Below the pieces are notes generated by a model that had not been told where the DNA came from, made no database searches, and saw nothing but the letters and a program-made list of their open reading frames with translations. DNA of 64,000 bases from an uncultured Bacilli bacterium (GTDB taxonomy: Bacteria; Bacillota_I; Bacilli_A; RF39; UBA660): NCBI GenBank assembly GCA_934130545.1, contig CAKOYD010000002.1, forward strand, positions 194,209 through 258,208, given 5' to 3'. Each line of letters begins with the position of its first letter. Within the stretch, counting starts at the first letter, position 1. Position numbers and translations under genes: made by a program. This document shows, piece after piece, positions 9,358 to 40,225 of this stretch.

Positions 9358-9897
9358 TTAATAATTAGTACTTCTCATTTCAAAGTATGCTTGTGGATGA
9401 TTACATGCTGGACATACTTTAGGAGCTGTCTTACCTACATGGACATAACCACAGTTTCTACATACCCATACTGTTGTATCTTCTTTATCAAATACTCTTT
9501 CACTAGCTATATTATTTAATAACTTTAAGTATCTTTCTTCATGTTCTTTTTCAATAGCTGCTACTAATCTAAACTTATTAGCAATTTCTTTAAATCCTTC
9601 TTCTTCAGCTTCTTTAGCAAAACTATCATACATATCTGTCCATTCATAGTTTTCTCCTTCAGCTGCTGCTTTTAAGTTTTCTTTAGTACTTGGAACAGCA
9701 CCACCATTTAATAGCTTAAACCACATTTTAGCATGTTCTTTTTCGTTATTAGCAGTTTCTTCAAATATAGCTGCTATTTGTTCATAACCTTCTTTTTTAG
9801 CAGCACTAGCGAAATATGTATATTTATTTCTTGCCTGGCTTTCTCCAGCAAATGCTGTCATTAAGTTTTGATATGTTTTTGAATCTTTTAATTCCAT
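9358..9897 (-). CDS. rbr: rubrerythrin
   Basis: 179 aa. Ferritin-like di-iron domain (EKEHAKMW…EKEHEERY) plus a C-terminal rubredoxin-like CxxC…CxxC (CRNCGYVH…CPACNHP). Confidence 0.9.
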
Positions 9898-9935
9898 TAT
9901 TTACTACCTCCATCTAAATTATACTTGATTAAAGT

Positions 9936-11063
9936 CTATTTGTCATTATCTTTTAAGAATTTTTTATATTTCTTTATAACTGTCGAATTATCTAGTTCAG
10001 TATTTGCTAATGACTCAAATAAACTCTTTTGTTCTTTAGTAAGCTTTTCAGGCATTATTACTTTAACAACAGCATACATATCGCCTTTTCTCTTTGTATT
10101 TACATTTTCAATACCTTTACCACGTAATCTTAATTTATCTAATGATTGTGTTCCACTTGGAATAGTTAATTCAACATTACCATATATTGTTGGTACTTCT
10201 TTAGTACATCCTAATACAGCTTCCGTTATTGTAAGTGGTAAATCTATATAAATATCATCTTCATTTCTCTTATAAAAATCATGATCTTTAACAGTAAACT
10301 CTAAATATAAGTCCCCATTTCTACCACCATTCTCACCAGCTTCACCTTTACCAGTTAATCTTAATCTATTACCATTATCAATGCCAGCAGGTACGGTTAC
10401 TGTAATAGTCTTACTCTTTCTAATCTTTCCTTTACCATTACAGTCAGGACATTTCTTTTCAAATATATTACCTGTCCCGTGACATTCCGGACAAGTTGTC
10501 TTACTAAGAAAACTACCAAACATAGTTCTTTGTTCACTAGAAATCGTTCCACTACCACGACATTCCGGACAAGTTTTAGAATTAAATCCACCTTCACCAT
10601 GACAATTAGGACAATTATCTACTGTATCTAAATTAATATCTTTTTCACAACCATGAACTGCTTCATCAAAGCTAATTGTCATTCGATATAGGACATCATT
10701 ACCTTTTCTCGGACCATTAGCACTTCTTCTAGAATTAGATGAGAATCCAAAACCACCTAGAATATCATCAAAGATGTCCCCCATATCTCCAAAGTCAAAT
10801 CCATCAAATCCTTGGAATCCTCCGGCACCGCCACCATTATTTTGGAAGGCGCTATGACCAAATTGATCATATTTTTTTCTCTTTTCTGGGTCAGACAATA
10901 CGGCATACGCTTCTTGAACTTCTTTAAACTTCTCCGCAGCATTTTCTTCTTTTGAAACATCCGGATGATATTTCTTAGCAAGTTTTCTAAAAGCCGATTT
11001 TATTTCTGCATCAGTAGCTGTCTTTGATACTCCTAAAACCTCATAATAATCTCTTTTATTCAT
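9936..11063 (-). CDS. dnaJ: molecular chaperone DnaJ
   Basis: 375 aa. J-domain ([31 protein letters not shown]), G/F-rich region, and four CxxCxGxG zinc-finger repeats. Confidence 0.95.
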
Positions 11064-11114
11064 CTTTACACCTTTCTAATAAAGTAGTAGTTCTAGTTTC
11101 CTAGAACTACATTT

Positions 11115-12941
<1,827 letters not shown>

Positions 12942-17652: not shown

Positions 17653-17848
17653 ATTTTTTCCTCCTTTTGTTTTTTCTTCCAAATATCTCTTCTCTATATA
17701 CCACTTATTTATAAATAAGCACTAGATATATAAATCAATATTTGTGCTAATTTAAGAAAAGCCATTAATAATATATCATAAAATAGTCAATAATACAAAT
17801 GTTTTTTATTATAAATTAAAAATATTTGTATCTCCTTACCAAAATAGA

Positions 17849-17878
17849 TTGACAATCATTTTTTTAGTATATTATAAT
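17849..17878 (+). promoter_or_regulatory. sigma-A-type promoter for the 17904 gene
   Basis: TTGACA-18 nt-TATAAT located about 25 nt upstream of the GGAGAG RBS. Confidence 0.5.
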
Positions 17879-17903: not shown

Positions 17904-18389
17904 ATGACAGAAACATTAGCTAGTACTCTAGCAGAATTATTTAAAGGTGGCGGTAAAGAAGTAGCCATATTCATTATTTCTTTATTACCTATTCTAGAAC
18001 TAAGAGGAGGCTTAATTGCCGCCAGAATACTTGGCGTAAAGTTTATAAAAGCCTTTATTATATGTTATATTGCTAATATTCTACCAGTACCATTTATTCT
18101 ACTATTTATCAACTATTTATTTAATAAAATGAGTAAATGGAAACCAACTAAAAAAATAGTAGATTGGCTTAGTAATAAAACATTAAAAAAGAAAGATCAA
18201 ATTGATAAATATGGTTACTTTGGTCTATTCTTATTTGTAGGTATACCACTACCTGGAACAGGTGCTTGGACAGGATCATTACTTGCTATCCTACTTAACC
18301 TAGATAAAAAGAAATCATTTGTAACTATAGCCATAGGTGTCCTAGCCGCAGGTATTATCATGAGCCTACTATCTTATGGAATATTTTAA
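17904..18389 (+). CDS. small integral membrane protein (COG2426 / small multidrug-export-like family)
   Basis: 161 aa with 4 predicted TM helices. LPILELRGG motif typical of the PF06695-like family. Confidence 0.5.
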   Translation: MTETLASTLAELFKGGGKEVAIFIISLLPILELRGGLIAARILGVKFIKAFIICYIANILPVPFILLFINYLFNKMSKWKPTKKIVDWLSNKTLKKKDQIDKYGYFGLFLFVGIPLPGTGAWTGSLLAILLNLDKKKSFVTIAIGVLAAGIIMSLLSYGIF

Positions 18390-18422
18390 AACTCAAGAAA
18401 CTAAAATCTCTTGAGTTTATTT

Positions 18423-20195
18423 TTATTTAACTATATATGGTTCTGTAGCAGTACCTAATCCTCCCCCTGTCACCGTTATCCCTTGTTTAAGTGAAACTAC
18501 AGGGCGCCCACCGAGCGAACCCGTAACGCTGTTTTCGGCGACAATCCCAGAGGAACGCAAATCGATCTCGCCAGCACCCCAGTCGTAGAAGAGAGACGGA
18601 GAAAAGGACCAATTATAAAAACCATTATACAAGTAATATGATGTATTTGTTTGCCATACCACTCCACCTGCAAAAGCCATTTCTTCCGCTGTAATCATTC
18701 CTACTGGATATGTTAACTCGCCATTACCATTATCCGTACTAACTGTAAACTTATCTATTTGTCTTGGACATACTAAACTTAACTTTCTATTTAATAGCCT
18801 TTGAACACTGCCAAAATATAACCACTTATTATAGTTACTGTAATCTTTATTCCAACCACTAGTACTTAAATTATAATATGTTCTATCATTACAAAATCCA
18901 GTATCTTCTAATTGTAATGTATAACTAGTCATATTAGTTTTATACCAAGTATCTATCTTTACTTTAGCATTTGATTCTTTAACATTAATGTCACCTTCAA
19001 ACATTTCATTTAGTAAATCAACTGGTTTCTTACCATTCGTTAGAGTGAAATAGTAAGTATATTTGTCTTCACTATAAATAATGTGTATATAGTATACACT
19101 TTGACAACTAGTACCTGAACTAAAGCAAGTATAATGATATTTGTCAGTATAGTTACTATATTCAGTACCCCAGCTACTTGGATCAGTTAATGTTTTAGTA
19201 TCTTTTAGTGTATATTTCCCTGTACTTGCATCGTACGTAGCATCATTTCCAAACACTATTGAACCTGTTAATGTTGTTATATCTTTGCTTGATGCAGTAT
19301 ATACCGTATTATACATGTATCCAACATATGCCGGAGAATTATAATTTGTATTAAATTGAATATTACCTATCGTAGTAGCACTACCTGTATTATTACATTG
19401 TCCATTAGAAGGTACACCATTATATATTAACTTAACCCCACCTGTTTCTGTTGTTCTTATTATTTTCCAGCAGAAGTTGGCAAATAATACATTATTATCT
19501 ACTGCTCCACGATAGTAATATACTGGTATATTACCTTCGGTATTAGTTGTCATATAGATGCCATTAGTACTACTAGCATCAGATGTTTTACTAAAATCAA
19601 TAGTTGTAGTAGTATCGGCATTATTTTTTATATAATCATATAATGGCTCTCCACCAATTAATACAGTACCATCACTATCTTCTACATCTTTAACTGCTAT
19701 ACCACTAGAAGTTAAATTAGCATTAAACTTCTTACCTAATATATCAGAAGAAGATACAGTATCAGGTATCCATAATTTAATAGTAAATGTTCTAGAAGAA
19801 CCTGGATTTAATATAACATCTCTAATTATTATATTACTATCACTAGACAATATAGCAGGGTTTTCCCCATCCATAGATACTTTAATGAAACTACTATCTA
19901 AAGTACTATTACTCATAGGTTCTAATATAACATTAAACTTATATGCTAAAGTACCTACATTGGTAATAGTAATAGTAGTTTCATTAGAATTCATACCATC
20001 AGTATCACTCATAGGATAAACATTATTTAAGTTTATACTTACATTACTATAACTTAATTTTAATGTACCAGTACTATAATTTTGTACAATAGAACTTACT
20101 TCACTAGTAAATAATGCATAAGTTTCTTTACCAATAGATACAAATAACATTAAAACAATTAATATTAACAATAATTTTTTATTTCTACTATTCAT
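18423..20195 (-). CDS. large secreted protein with a SipW-cognate (TasA/camelysin-type) signal peptide; 3' end compositionally atypical
   Basis: 590 aa. N-terminus MNSRNKKLLLILIVLMLFVSIGKETYALFTSEVSS matches the SipW-cognate signal class (…GTYAYFSDTE…). S/T/N/Y-rich body. The last ~60 codons are GC-rich with atypical codons. Confidence 0.7.
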   Translation of the reverse strand: MNSRNKKLLLILIVLMLFVSIGKETYALFTSEVSSIVQNYSTGTLKLSYSNVSINLNNVYPMSDTDGMNSNETTITITNVGTLAYKFNVILEPMSNSTLDSSFIKVSMDGENPAILSSDSNIIIRDVILNPGSSRTFTIKLWIPDTVSSSDILGKKFNANLTSSGIAVKDVEDSDGTVLIGGEPLYDYIKNNADTTTTIDFSKTSDASSTNGIYMTTNTEGNIPVYYYRGAVDNNVLFANFCWKIIRTTETGGVKLIYNGVPSNGQCNNTGSATTIGNIQFNTNYNSPAYVGYMYNTVYTASSKDITTLTGSIVFGNDATYDASTGKYTLKDTKTLTDPSSWGTEYSNYTDKYHYTCFSSGTSCQSVYYIHIIYSEDKYTYYFTLTNGKKPVDLLNEMFEGDINVKESNAKVKIDTWYKTNMTSYTLQLEDTGFCNDRTYYNLSTSGWNKDYSNYNKWLYFGSVQRLLNRKLSLVCPRQIDKFTVSTDNGNGELTYPVGMITAEEMAFAGGVVWQTNTSYYLYNGFYNWSFSPSLFYDWGAGEIDLRSSGIVAENSVTGSLGGRPVVSLKQGITVTGGGLGTATEPYIVK

Positions 20196-36610: not shown

Positions 36611-39600
36611 CTATTGCCAACAATAACTATCGTTTAATTTAGTATATCCACTAGCACATGAATATGTTGTTACTGTTGTTCCTGATGTATATATTTTACA
36701 TGACTTATTTACAAGGTATCCACTTGAGCAAGAATAAGCATATGAACAATTATTACTACTAAGAGTATATCCAGATGGGCAATTTGCACCACCAGAATTA
36801 GCACAACTATATTGTGTTACCCTTCCAGTACTAGTTCGCTTACAATAAAAACTTCCTGTAAGATGACTATTAGCACTAGTATAATAATAACATCCGCCAC
36901 TATCTTGTAGATTACTACCACAATCTTCATAAGAACTTGCTGTTGTATTCGCTACTGTACCACTACATGTATTAGTATTACCAGCTCCATCTTTTACATA
37001 GAAAGTATATGTCTTTGCTCCTGTTATTGTACCAGTACTACTATTACTGCCACTATATGATGAACTCCAACCATAGTATGCTAGACCACTTCCTCCTTCA
37101 TCAGAATATGTGGCAGTTATTGTTGTACCACTAGCACTTAATGTACATTTTGGTCTAATTGTATCGATAATAATCCAGTGAGCATATAACGTTGTATCTG
37201 ATGTTTTATCCCAATCTCTTACACTTTGACCACTACTATTATAATATTGTGTTCCACCACTTGCTGAGTCATAATAACCGGCAAATGTATATCCAGTCAT
37301 AGTAGGTAAAGTTATATCAGGATAACTACCTTGTTTAGTACCATGAACAATAGTAGTTGAGTCAGTACCTCCTGTACCACCATTCTTATTGAATGTTATA
37401 GTATATACTTTAGCTGTCCAATAAGCATATAGTGTATGATCACTAGCATTGGATACTATAGTATCACTTGTTACTCTAGTACCTGTACCATTTTCTCCCG
37501 TATACCAACCGCCAAATGAATAACCTGCTTTTATTGGTGTTGGCATATCACCATATTTTTGACTTTGTTGAACAGTTCTGTTTATACTAGTCAGAATTAT
37601 TCTAGCTGCTCCATTACCAGTCTTAACATAATTACTAACAGAATTCCCGGAAATATTAGTTGTAGAATATGTTTTAGTACTTGTTGCATCAGAAGTTGCG
37701 CAATTATAACAATACATATATTTATCAGTAAGCAGTGAATTGCCAATATAACCAGAACCACCTCCGCCAGGAGCAATGTGTCCACTTCGTGATCCACCAT
37801 AAAAACCACCGCCTCCGCCAGTAGTAGCCCAATCACTTCCACCGCCTTGGCCGAATGACCCAGTAATAACACCACTATTTACTTCGCTTGCTCTATTACA
37901 ATCACTTGTTATTTTACCTCCGGCGGTCTGAGTTCCGCCAAGGCCTACACACCATTGATTATCTTCAACACTGGATTCATCTCCAGAATTACCTATGTAT
38001 CCACCACCGGAACCACCACGTAATCCATATGTTCCAACATTTTCACCATAGTAAGATCCACCGCCTCCGCCAGAAACAATTAATATATTTGATAGGCTAG
38101 ATGATAATGATGATAGTAATCCAGACTTTGTAGCAATATGAGTCGCTCCACCGCCGGAACCAAATGATCTATTGCAGCATGCCTGGCCTCCTGTTGAACC
38201 ACCACCATTATATCCACCCACAATATTCTCTAACGTTCCAGACGAGGTTCTGCTTCCCTGGCCTCCAACATTAACATATAAAATATCACCTGAGTTTAAT
38301 GTAGTCGTTCCTTGTGAATATCCCCCATAACCACCAACAGTACCATCTATTGTTGTTCCTCCTTGAGCACCCCATGTTTCAAGTTTATATGTTCCAGTAT
38401 ATGGGACTGTGTAAATATTTTCTTTGGCCTCTGTAAATGTTGAAATAACATTATAACTTCCACCGGCAACATCAAAAGTTACATTTACAGTTTTATTCCA
38501 TTTAGCATACAAAGTATGATTATTGGCAATAGTTATTACTGTATTCTCATCTACTTTAGTACCTGCCCCATTCTCACCAGTATACCAACCACCGAAAGTA
38601 TATCCTTCTCTAGTTGGGGTTGGTAATTCACCATATTTGTCTTTATAAGTTACATTATAGTTGGTGTCACTTATTAATGTAACTCTAGCTGCTCCATCAC
38701 CGCTTTTAGCGTAATCAGTAGTTGGTGTCGCTGAAGCATTGGTAGTTGTATATGTCTTAGTATCGGTAGCATCAGATGTTGTACAATTATAGCAATACAT
38801 ATATTTATTAGCAAGTAATGAATTGCCTATGTAACTGGATCCACCGCCACCGCCACCATTCCTAGCAGAACCGCCAGCTCCACCGTATAGACCACCGCCT
38901 CCACCGCCAGCTCCGTGCTCAAAGCTTGCTTCGTATCCACCTTGGCCTCCTAATCCAAATTGTCCAACTGTACCAGTAACACTTCCAGAGCCAAGGGTTC
39001 CTCCGGAGGTTTGTGTACCGCCACCGCCACCGCCTTGGAATGAACTACTATTGTGTCCACCGGTGTTACCCTGTATCCCACCGCCTGAACCACCTATCTC
39101 ATTTGCATTAAATACTCCAGTACCACCGCCGCCGCCTGAAACTATCAGGATACTTGATAGAGAGGATGATAAAGACGACAATAAACCTGTCTTTGTTGCA
39201 ATATGGGTAGCACCACCCCCAGTTCCTGCACTGTAATTTGCATTTCCACCACCATTATATCCACCAGTAGTAAATGTACTTTCAGCATTAGAACTTACGC
39301 CTTGACCTCCGACATTAAGATATAAAATATCTCCTTTTTTTAATGAAACAACTCCAGTAGAGTAACTACCATAACCAATTTGAGTTGTAGAATATTGGCC
39401 GCCTTGGGCTCCCCAAGTTTCTAATTTATAATCACCAGTATATGTTACTTTGTAAGTATACTCTTGCGGTTGGGTGTATGTAACAGCAAAATTACCTCCT
39501 GCTAAGTCTAAACTAACTGTTATATTTTTAGGTTCAAACACTACTTCACAATTAACATTACTTGTTATATTAGATATAGTTAAGATATTATTAGATACTG

Positions 39601-40201
39601 TTCCTTCACATGTTGTTGATTTATATTGATAACCATCATTAGGTGCTAAAGTATATTTAACTGTACCATTCTTAGTAGATAATTTAATATTAGGTTTTAC
39701 TTTACCGTAAGTATTATTATTAGATTTAACTATTGCTTTATAGTATACATCTTTATTTATGCCAGTACTATTGCTAGGTAATTCTAATATTTCTTTTTCA
39801 AAACCTACTATATCTTTAATACTTACTGTTGTATCAGTACTACTATTATTTTGAATAAATACTTTAACTAGATTAGTATTCTTACTATTAAGTACTCCAC
39901 TAGTATCTGTATCACTTATATTAATTATACTAATATTAGAGTTTACTCCTTCTAAATAAAGTAGATATGACATATTAAATTCATTAGGATTACTTATTTT
40001 AATATCTACTATTTTACTATCATAACTAGGTATTAATATATCTCTATTAGTTCTATCACCTAAAACTATATTAAATAGATAATCTGCTTTACTACTATTA
40101 CCTTCGGTAATGGTAGTATCTATTGCAAATGTTCCTATTAGAGAAATAACTCCTATTATAAATATCAAAAATAATCCTATATATATTGTCCTTTTTTTCA
40201 T
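36611..40201 (-). CDS. giant secreted glycine-rich surface protein: signal peptide, duplicated Gly-rich module with Flg_new (Listeria-Bacteroides) repeats, and a Cys-rich C-terminal module shared with the pilin-like protein
   Basis: ~1196 aa from ATG 40201 (AGGTGG RBS; the ORF track uses GTG at 40213). N-terminal signal MKKRTIYIGLFLIFIIGVISLIG. Two ~345-aa tandem copies (YKLETWGAQGG…GGATHIATK.GLLSSLSSSLS.ILIVSGGGGG…YMYCYNC…GY.FGGWYTGENG.GT.V…HTLYA.W). A third Flg_new repeat. C-terminal ~200 aa Cys-rich tail. Confidence 0.8.
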   Translation of the reverse strand: MKKRTIYIGLFLIFIIGVISLIGTFAIDTTITEGNSSKADYLFNIVLGDRTNRDILIPSYDSKIVDIKISNPNEFNMSYLLYLEGVNSNISIINISDTDTSGVLNSKNTNLVKVFIQNNSSTDTTVSIKDIVGFEKEILELPSNSTGINKDVYYKAIVKSNNNTYGKVKPNIKLSTKNGTVKYTLAPNDGYQYKSTTCEGTVSNNILTISNITSNVNCEVVFEPKNITVSLDLAGGNFAVTYTQPQEYTYKVTYTGDYKLETWGAQGGQYSTTQIGYGSYSTGVVSLKKGDILYLNVGGQGVSSNAESTFTTGGYNGGGNANYSAGTGGGATHIATKTGLLSSLSSSLSSILIVSGGGGGTGVFNANEIGGSGGGIQGNTGGHNSSSFQGGGGGGTQTSGGTLGSGSVTGTVGQFGLGGQGGYEASFEHGAGGGGGGLYGGAGGSARNGGGGGGSSYIGNSLLANKYMYCYNCTTSDATDTKTYTTTNASATPTTDYAKSGDGAARVTLISDTNYNVTYKDKYGELPTPTREGYTFGGWYTGENGAGTKVDENTVITIANNHTLYAKWNKTVNVTFDVAGGSYNVISTFTEAKENIYTVPYTGTYKLETWGAQGGTTIDGTVGGYGGYSQGTTTLNSGDILYVNVGGQGSRTSSGTLENIVGGYNGGGSTGGQACCNRSFGSGGGATHIATKSGLLSSLSSSLSNILIVSGGGGGSYYGENVGTYGLRGGSGGGYIGNSGDESSVEDNQWCVGLGGTQTAGGKITSDCNRASEVNSGVITGSFGQGGGSDWATTGGGGGFYGGSRSGHIAPGGGGSGYIGNSLLTDKYMYCYNCATSDATSTKTYSTTNISGNSVSNYVKTGNGAARIILTSINRTVQQSQKYGDMPTPIKAGYSFGGWYTGENGTGTRVTSDTIVSNASDHTLYAYWTAKVYTITFNKNGGTGGTDSTTIVHGTKQGSYPDITLPTMTGYTFAGYYDSASGGTQYYNSSGQSVRDWDKTSDTTLYAHWIIIDTIRPKCTLSASGTTITATYSDEGGSGLAYYGWSSSYSGSNSSTGTITGAKTYTFYVKDGAGNTNTCSGTVANTTASSYEDCGSNLQDSGGCYYYTSANSHLTGSFYCKRTSTGRVTQYSCANSGGANCPSGYTLSSNNCSYAYSCSSGYLVNKSCKIYTSGTTVTTYSCASGYTKLNDSYCWQ
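37430..39500 (-). repeat. internal tandem duplication (~1.05-1.08 kb unit, two copies) inside the giant gene
   Basis: Nucleotide-level similarity at ~1082-bp offset (for example 37688-37770 versus 38770-38850). The protein shows two co-linear ~345-aa modules. Boundaries are approximate. Confidence 0.7.
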
Positions 40202-40225
40202 AATTAACACCACCTATAGACATGA

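What the first reader, a model, noticed from the sequence alone, without database searches (positions are those of the whole stretch)
18423..18640. Compositionally foreign GC-rich 3' segment at the end of the 590-aa secreted-protein gene
The last ~200 bp (approximately 18440-18610) are about 50-55% GC in a <30% GC context. They use codons that are otherwise rare here (CGC, CCG, GCG, TCG, CTG) to encode …DWGAGEIDLRSSGIVAENSVTGSLGGRPVVSLKQGITVTGGGLGTATEPYIVK. Elsewhere Arg is AGA and Ser is TCA or AGT. Such a sharp switch suggests a recently acquired C-terminal domain (mosaic gene, HGT or recombination), or a nucleotide-level constraint such as an RNA structure or recombination site.
Basis: seen in the sequence. 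Interest (0 to 1): 0.6.

Follow-up and report, generated by a model that had tools for sequence, protein, structure and literature searches.

The report
DGR variable region in gene tail
The GC-rich end of this secreted-protein gene is the 'variable region' that a diversity-generating retroelement (a reverse-transcriptase system that rewrites a short stretch of a gene) once wrote into it; it is a well-known kind of element, here apparently frozen and without its retroelement nearby.

Summary
Window 18490-18612 (minus strand, last ~41 structured codons of the 590-aa gene 18423..20195) is 56% GC against 27.7% for the window, GC3 jumps from 0.15 to 0.56, and coding-strand A falls from 38% to 11%. 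It is not a piece of foreign high-GC DNA. It is the variable region (VR) of a diversity-generating retroelement (DGR) target gene. In a homologous locus from an equally AT-rich gut Bacilli MAG (L009) the same segment is followed by a template repeat (TR), an Avd-like ORF and a reverse transcriptase; there VR and TR differ at 15/28 TR adenines and 0/90 other positions. The window segment aligns to that TR with 17/28 changes at adenines versus 8/90 elsewhere (Fisher p=7e-8) and shares the GC-rich 3' IMH-like end. Bona fide VRs of four such cassettes are 55-59% GC, their TRs 44-46%, in 25-27% GC loci: the GC island is the footprint of an A-poor template plus A-to-N mutagenesis. No TR, Avd, RT or TR-linked RNA element lies in the 64-kb window, the cognate TR was not found, and the VR is identical on ~30 contigs from several samples, so this copy looks quiescent (remote or recently orphaned target). 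Known kind, new member.

The parts
18423..20195 (-). Target gene, 590 aa: N-terminal hydrophobic signal-like segment, central region, C-terminal ~160-aa domain that carries the VR
   Evidence: ORF; exact protein on 26 contigs; >3800 relatives; no Pfam/NCBIfam hit for this protein itself but 21 of 58 relatives of the C-terminal domain hit PF19789 DUF6273
18490..18612 (-). Variable region (VR): the stretch homologous to DGR template repeats, TTGGTCC...GTAGTTTCACT, 123 nt, 56% GC, 11% A
   Evidence: Aligns without gaps to the TR of L009 (11482-11599): 17/28 mismatches at TR adenines, 8/90 at other bases; composition
18596..18612 (-). 5' constant flank of the VR (TTGGTCCTTTTCTCCGT), identical in window VR, L009 VR and L009 TR
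   Evidence: Alignment A2
18520..18595 (-). Zone of adenine-directed substitutions (first to last TR-adenine site that differs); encodes the hypervariable residues SL.YD.G.G..D.R...I.AENS.TG
   Evidence: alignment; same columns are hypervariable (mean 5.2 residues per column) in 13 near-identical proteins of the P0084 cluster and across the family
18490..18519 (-). 3' constant GC-rich end, IMH-like (TTCGCTCGGTGGGCGCCCTGTAGTTTCACT); 29/30 identical to the VR end of the intact cassette L009; homology with the TR stops at GTAGTTT(C/T)ACT
   Evidence: definition of IMH and GC-rich flanks from PMC5758913

Best explanation
The GC-rich segment is the variable region (VR) of a diversity-generating retroelement (DGR) target gene. 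In a DGR, an RNA that contains a template repeat (TR) is reverse-transcribed by a dedicated RT (with Avd); adenines of the TR are copied unfaithfully, and the cDNA replaces the VR at the 3' end of the target gene, starting from a GC-rich IMH sequence. Because the template keeps adenines almost only in the codons meant to vary (AAC, AAT) and avoids them elsewhere, the TR is already ~45% GC in a ~26% GC genome, and A-to-N substitution raises the VR to 55-59% GC and strips A from the coding strand. That is the compositional 'foreignness' seen at 18490-18612. Shown: the homology of the window segment to TRs/VRs of intact cassettes in related genomes, the adenine-specific mismatch pattern, the shared constant flanks, the matching composition, and active diversification of the same columns in a sister cluster. 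Inferred: that this very copy was written by such a retroelement in its own lineage. In this species the VR appears quiescent: it is identical on about 30 contigs from several samples, and no TR, Avd, RT or TR-linked RNA element lies within the 64-kb window, so it is either a remote target of a DGR elsewhere in the genome that is rarely active, or a recently orphaned VR.
For: L009 (78% aa identity, AT-rich Bacilli MAG) has target-VR-TR-Avd-RT; VR/TR differ at 15/28 TR adenines and 0/90 other sites; RT = RVT_1 E 1.9e-18, Avd-like NF033474 E 6.8e-5. Same layout and A-only differences in L095 (17/30 vs 1/88), L096 (23/32 vs 1/86), L087, L101. Window VR vs L009 TR: 17/28 at A, 8/90 elsewhere, Fisher p=6.8e-8; A->G 11, A->C 3, A->T 3. 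Composition: window VR 56% GC/11% A; true VRs 55-59% GC/8-11% A; TRs 44-46% GC. P0084 cluster: 13 near-identical proteins, 17 hypervariable VR columns at the same positions. Decay series: VR-equivalents that have drifted further from the TR are progressively less GC-rich, down to 28-37%, so a 56% GC VR is recent. Relatives hit DUF6273, a published CLec-like DGR target domain with the VR at its C-terminus (PMC10743442, PMC11792537). GC-rich constant flanks, IMH and remote targets are described for DGRs (PMC5758913).
Against: No cognate TR was found: none in the window, none in two metagenome scans and one viral scan; the nearest TR differs at 8 non-adenine positions. No RT, Avd or paralogue in the window and no TR-spacer RNA element. 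The VR is invariant on ~30 contigs while two single substitutions occur elsewhere in the protein, so there is no sign of ongoing diversification. The window protein itself has no Pfam hit and the fold of its C-terminal domain could not be assigned (pLDDT 74.5; Foldseek best E 1.4-2.7).
Confidence: 0.87

Rival explanations
1. The VR is still an active remote target: a cognate DGR (own TR, slightly different from that of L009) sits elsewhere in the genome, more than 18 kb away on one side and 45 kb on the other, and rewrites this VR at a frequency too low to show in consensus assemblies.
For: VR composition and IMH-like end are indistinguishable from VRs next to intact cassettes; remote targets >100 kb away are documented (PMC5758913); in MAG CAKPNA01 at least 12 paralogues exist but only two loci carry a TR; the 8 non-A differences could be differences of a private TR.
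Against: Identical VR on ~30 contigs from several samples and cohorts, whereas an active sister cluster shows a different VR in each of 13 members; the non-A change EF->EI is private to this protein among 97 family members, which fits point mutation after the last homing.
Confidence: 0.3
2. Horizontal transfer or recombination brought in a C-terminal segment from a GC-richer donor lineage.
For: Sharp composition boundary and rare codons.
Against: Protein homology runs uninterrupted through the segment in relatives from 25-29% GC genomes, all with the same local GC rise; nearest nucleotide relatives are TRs/VRs of AT-rich Bacilli; mismatches are adenine-specific; no match in viral or metagenome scans to a higher-GC source (the two 19-mer hits are unrelated).
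Confidence: 0.03
3. The GC richness reflects an embedded functional RNA or DNA structure (riboswitch-like, sRNA, antisense) unrelated to retroelements.
For: DNA fold of 18395-18520 is slightly more stable than shuffles (z = -2.2).
Against: No Rfam match in 18200-18900 apart from a chance 18-bit hit outside the segment; the weak stem CCCTGT/ACAGGG is not conserved in L009; composition is fully explained by the TR template.
Confidence: 0.02
4. Amino-acid composition (Gly, Ala, Arg, Pro) alone causes the GC rise.
For: Gly-rich repeats in gene 36611..40213 reach 63% GC through codon positions 1 and 2; the last 67 nt of the target gene (39% GC) are of this kind.
Against: In the VR GC3 is 0.56 versus 0.15 baseline, and codons never used elsewhere (CGC, CTC) appear.
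Confidence: 0.02

Closest known systems
Treponema denticola DGR (TvpA and seven scattered targets) and other non-phage DGRs with remote targets (Wu et al. 2018, PMC5758913)
   Same: Chromosomal DGR family with several target genes per genome, VR at the C-terminus of a secreted/surface protein, targets far from the RT; GC-rich constant sequences on both sides of the mutagenised zone.
   Different: Here the target domain is not FGE-sulfatase/CLec1 by sequence; the accessory protein in related cassettes is Avd-like, not HRDC; for the window copy no RT/TR is known at all.
Bordetella phage BPP-1 DGR (mtd-VR, avd, TR, brt)
   Same: Adenine-specific TR-to-VR differences, AAC-rich template, GC-rich IMH at the 3' end of the VR, VR in the last ~40 codons.
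   Different: Gene order in the relatives is target-VR-TR-structured spacer-avd-RT rather than target-avd-TR-RT; no GC-rich inverted repeat right after the IMH; not phage-borne as far as seen (neighbours are housekeeping genes).
DUF6273 DGR targets of Faecalibacterium prophages and 'tentaclins' (PMC11792537, PMC10743442)
   Same: Relatives of the window's C-terminal domain match the C-terminal part of DUF6273, the part where those papers place the VR; low-GC Firmicutes gut setting.
   Different: Those are phage tail/receptor-binding proteins; this is a chromosomal multi-paralogue family flanked by ribosomal-protein and chaperone genes, and the window protein itself falls below Pfam detection.

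Membership tests
DGR variable region (VR of a target gene) | Segment homologous to a template repeat, with differences concentrated at template adenines | tested here: met
   Versus the closest TR found (L009, another species): 17/28 at A, 8/90 at non-A, p=6.8e-8. Caveat: heterologous TR, not the cognate one.
DGR variable region (VR of a target gene) | Located at the 3' end of an ORF, with constant GC-rich flanks and an IMH-like 3' end shared with the TR up to a divergence point | tested here: met
   VR 18490-18612 ends 67 nt before the stop; 5' flank 17/17 and 3' end 29/30 identical to the VR of the intact L009 cassette; TR homology ends at GTAGTTT(C/T)ACT.
DGR variable region (VR of a target gene) | Amino-acid hypervariability confined to the codons that carry adenines in the template | tested here: met
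   Family alignment and P0084 cluster: 17 VR columns with mean 5.2 residues versus 2.0 elsewhere.
Complete, active DGR system at this locus | Cognate TR in the same genome differing from the VR only at adenines | tested here: inconclusive
   None in the 64-kb window; not found in metagenome or viral scans; rest of the genome not available.
Complete, active DGR system at this locus | DGR-type reverse transcriptase (and Avd) encoded nearby | tested here: not met
   tblastn with three RTs and Avd finds nothing in the window; CM of the TR-adjacent RNA element finds nothing. Present in related loci L009, L087, L095, L096, L101.
Complete, active DGR system at this locus | Ongoing diversification: different VRs among otherwise identical gene copies | tested here: not met
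   26+3+1 contigs carry the same VR; the only variants are G388A and I480L outside it; six loci 100% identical over 218 nt.
C-type-lectin-fold / DUF6273 DGR target domain | Sequence or structural match to DUF6273 or a CLec fold | tested here: inconclusive

The most novel reading that the evidence does not exclude
The window copy is one member of a very large paralogous family (at least 12 copies in one MAG) of secreted proteins in uncultured AT-rich gut Bacilli whose C-terminal VRs pass through a life cycle: actively rewritten, then frozen, then eroded towards genomic AT-richness. On this reading the local GC content and the count of non-adenine mismatches act as a clock for time since the last retrohoming, and the window VR is a freshly frozen variant that swept through the species, perhaps because it binds a useful ligand.
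Probability: 0.3. Interest if true: 0.5.

Novelty: new member of a known kind. Interest (0 to 1): 0.33.

Why it matters
It turns an apparent case of foreign DNA into a recognisable signature: in very AT-rich genomes a ~120-nt island of high GC3 and low A at the 3' end of a surface-protein gene marks a DGR variable region even when the retroelement is not nearby. That is useful for annotating remote or orphaned DGR targets, which RT-centred pipelines miss. It also points to a large, unannotated family of DGR-diversified secreted proteins in uncultured human-gut Bacilli, and to a possible way of ordering VRs by time since their last rewriting. For DGR biology itself nothing here is outside the known mechanism.

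Tried and rejected
Search for a TR in the window by repeat finding and sensitive blastn: none. TR-specific 29-mer in metagenome contigs: 0 hits; 19-mer of the IMH-like end in viral contigs: 0, in metagenome contigs: 2 hits, both an unrelated conserved element in 41-43% GC contigs. Looked up eight RT homologues to find a TR matching the window VR better than L009's: L087, L095, L096, L101 have quite different TRs (28-55 non-A mismatches); L090, L091, L092, L100 contigs break before the TR. No synteny between those RT loci and the window. A weak blastn match of the L009 TR-spacer to window 17830-17873 was tested with a covariance model and rejected (it overlaps a perfect sigma-70-like promoter). 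Full-length AF2 model unusable (pLDDT 49.7). PDB sequence searches with protein and two profiles: nothing. Rfam: nothing. Downstream GC-rich inverted repeat as in Bordetella: only a weak non-conserved 6-bp stem.

Full report
OBSERVATION. The gene on the minus strand at 18423..20195 encodes a 590-aa protein with a hydrophobic N-terminal segment. Sliding 100-nt windows give GC 0.54-0.61 at 18450-18599 against a window mean of 0.277 (sd 0.062). The switch is at synonymous sites. GC3 is 0.56 for the 41 codons between 18611 and 18489, but 0.15 for the 528 upstream codons and 0.15 for 3544 codons of nine other genes. Codons CGC and CTC are absent from those 3544 codons yet are used here. Adenine on the coding strand falls from 38% to 11%. 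The other GC islands of the window are two tRNAs and the Gly-rich repeats of gene 36611..40213. In those repeats GC rises through codon positions 1 and 2 and GC3 stays at 0.17-0.33. The segment is 100% identical in six independently assembled contigs, so it is not a chimera. The deviant stretch is about 123 nt, not the full 218 nt.

WHAT IT IS. The protein belongs to a large family (3861 hits at E<=0.001) with no Pfam or NCBIfam match for the window protein.

- In an alignment of 18 members, the stretch SPxxFxxWxAxEFxLxSSGxFxxxxVxxS is hypervariable between proteins that are otherwise about 78% identical. It is followed by the invariant GxRPVVSLK.
- A scan of species-representative genomes returned 80 loci, at least 12 of them from one AT-rich gut Bacilli MAG (CAKPNA01).
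- In locus L009 the homologous gene (9398..11221) is followed by a second copy of the GC-rich segment at 11482-11599. Next come a 127-aa ORF with weak Avd similarity (NF033474 E 6.8e-5; bAvd E 0.009) and a 490-aa reverse transcriptase (RVT_1 E 1.9e-18).
- The two copies in L009 differ at 15 of the 28 adenines of the downstream copy and at none of the 90 other positions. The adenines sit mostly in AAC/AAT codons. This is the defining signature of a DGR template repeat (TR) and variable region (VR) (PMC5758913).
- The same layout, target-VR-TR-avd-RT with adenine-only differences, recurs in L095 (17/30 vs 1/88) and L096 (23/32 vs 1/86). It also recurs in L087 and L101.

THE WINDOW SEGMENT AS A VR. 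Window 18612..18495 aligns without gaps to the L009 TR. It differs at 17 of 28 TR adenines (A>G 11, A>C 3, A>T 3) and at 8 of 90 other sites (Fisher p = 6.8e-8). The 5' constant flank (18596-18612) is identical to the L009 VR. The 3' GC-rich IMH-like end (18490-18519) is identical at 29 of 30 positions, and homology with the TR ends at GTAGTTT(C/T)ACT, as in L009. The substituted zone (18520-18595) encodes exactly the columns that vary in the family.

A sister cluster shows the system at work. In the P0084 cluster, 13 proteins are nearly identical elsewhere (26 variable columns, 2 residues each) but have 17 VR columns with a mean of 5.2 residues, and every member has a different VR.

WHY IT IS GC-RICH. 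In loci of 25-27% GC, the TRs are 44-46% GC and 24-27% A, and their VRs are 55-59% GC and 8-11% A. The window VR is 56% GC and 11% A. The template keeps adenines mainly where variation is wanted, and mutagenesis then replaces most of them. Wu et al. also describe GC-rich constant sequences on both sides of the mutagenised zone. So the 'foreign' composition is imposed by a non-coding template, not by a donor genome.

A decay series supports this and suggests recency. As non-adenine mismatches to the L009 TR rise from 0 to 6-8, then 13-21, then 36-43, GC of the VR-equivalent falls from 0.55-0.57 to 0.46-0.54 and then 0.28-0.37. L097 holds P0028, the closest full-length relative. That gene lies in the neighbourhood where L095, L091 and L100 carry avd-RT, but here without them, and its VR-equivalent is only 35% GC.

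STATE OF THIS COPY.

- The window contains no TR and no RT, Avd or paralogue.
- It contains no copy of the conserved structured element that follows the TR in seven cassettes. Covariance model R1 gives a best window hit of E 1.9, against E 1e-27 to 1e-38 in the cassettes.
- The cognate TR was not found in metagenome or viral scans or through eight RT look-ups.
- The exact protein is on 26 contigs. Its two cluster mates (3 and 1 contigs) differ only at residues 388 and 480, outside the VR.
- One non-adenine change (TTC to ATC, EF to EI) is private to this protein among 97 family members.

I therefore read this VR as quiescent: either a rarely rewritten remote target or a recently orphaned one. 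Remote targets more than 100 kb from the RT are known for non-phage DGRs.

RIVALS.

- HGT from a GC-rich donor is contradicted by uninterrupted homology in AT-rich relatives that carry the same tail, and by the adenine-specific pattern.
- Amino-acid composition is contradicted by GC3.
- An embedded RNA has no support.
- An assembly artefact is excluded by replication across assemblies.

VERDICT. A real and striking compositional island with an ordinary explanation for a specialist: a DGR variable region, a new member of a known kind. The retroelement itself is not in view, and there is evidence that this copy is currently frozen.

Noticed in passing
L009:11623-11794, L072:11380-11545, L030:2916-3077, L095:2790-2955, L096:3481-3638, L101:2490-2648, L087:5437-5600, L091:1-65: A conserved ~160-nt element lies between the TR and avd in all seven cassettes: 42 predicted base pairs in two long hairpins, 16 with compensatory changes. 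A covariance model built from it also finds a truncated copy at the start of L091 (E 7e-14) and nothing in 68 other loci or the window. It may be the structured part of the DGR RNA, comparable to the Bordetella spacer region.
   Followed up: partly
L009:12156-13628 (RT residues 359-402): The RTs of this clade carry a C-terminal extension with weak MutS domain I similarity (E 5.7e-4, just below the Pfam cut-off). PF01624 is precomputed for many homologues. Wu et al. 2018 noted this in only three RTs.
   Followed up: partly
L097:1079-4417 compared with L095:366-6379, L091, L100: P0028, the closest full-length relative of the window protein, sits directly beside the 521-aa(-)/182-aa/RecX/SpoIIIAH neighbourhood. 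In L095, L091 and L100 that neighbourhood is preceded by avd-RT. This looks like loss of the cassette, and the VR-equivalent there has dropped to 35% GC.
   Followed up: partly
L072:11240-11545: The same MAG as L009 holds a second TR plus spacer element with no RT after it (a 299-aa ORF without Pfam hit, then D-Ala-D-Ala ligase). Its adjacent VR has 8/86 non-adenine mismatches, so the cassette is possibly degenerate.
   Followed up: partly
L007-L019, L072 (contigs of MAG CAKPNA01): At least 12 paralogues of the target family occur in one small AT-rich genome. Most have VRs that match neither of the two TRs found there at non-adenine sites.
   Followed up: partly
L090, L091, L092, L100 (contig starts): Metagenome contigs carrying these RTs break just upstream of the RT, inside or next to avd. 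This is presumably because the TR/VR repeats and many paralogues fragment the assemblies, which hides TRs from context searches.
   Followed up: no
window 36611-40213 (-): A 1200-aa secreted protein has two ~360-aa tandem repeats rich in glycine. A relative matches the ALK/LTK glycine-rich domain and the Listeria-Bacteroides repeat (P0041). Its GC islands (up to 63%) come from Gly codons, not from GC3.
   Followed up: partly
window 18390-18417: A 9-bp inverted repeat (AACTCAAGA / TCTTGAGTT, 10-nt loop) lies between the convergent target gene and the 161-aa membrane-protein gene 17904..18389. It may be a bidirectional terminator, but the terminator scan did not call it.
   Followed up: no
window 20104-20195 (N-terminus of the target protein): The N-terminus (KKLLLILIVLMLFVSIGKETYALFTSE; paralogues IGGTFAYLTTS) resembles, from memory, SipW-dependent signal peptides of TasA/camelysin-type proteins. 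NCBIfam gave no hit, so this is an untested resemblance.
   Followed up: no
L093:964-982, L094:1772-1790: The 19-mer GGTGGGCGCCCTGTAGTTT also occurs in an unrelated conserved element (…GTGCCGTGTTGG…GGTGGGCGCCCTGTAGTTTCTTTAGGCTTTTCTG…) in two 41-43% GC metagenome contigs. It may be a structured RNA and was not identified.
   Followed up: no
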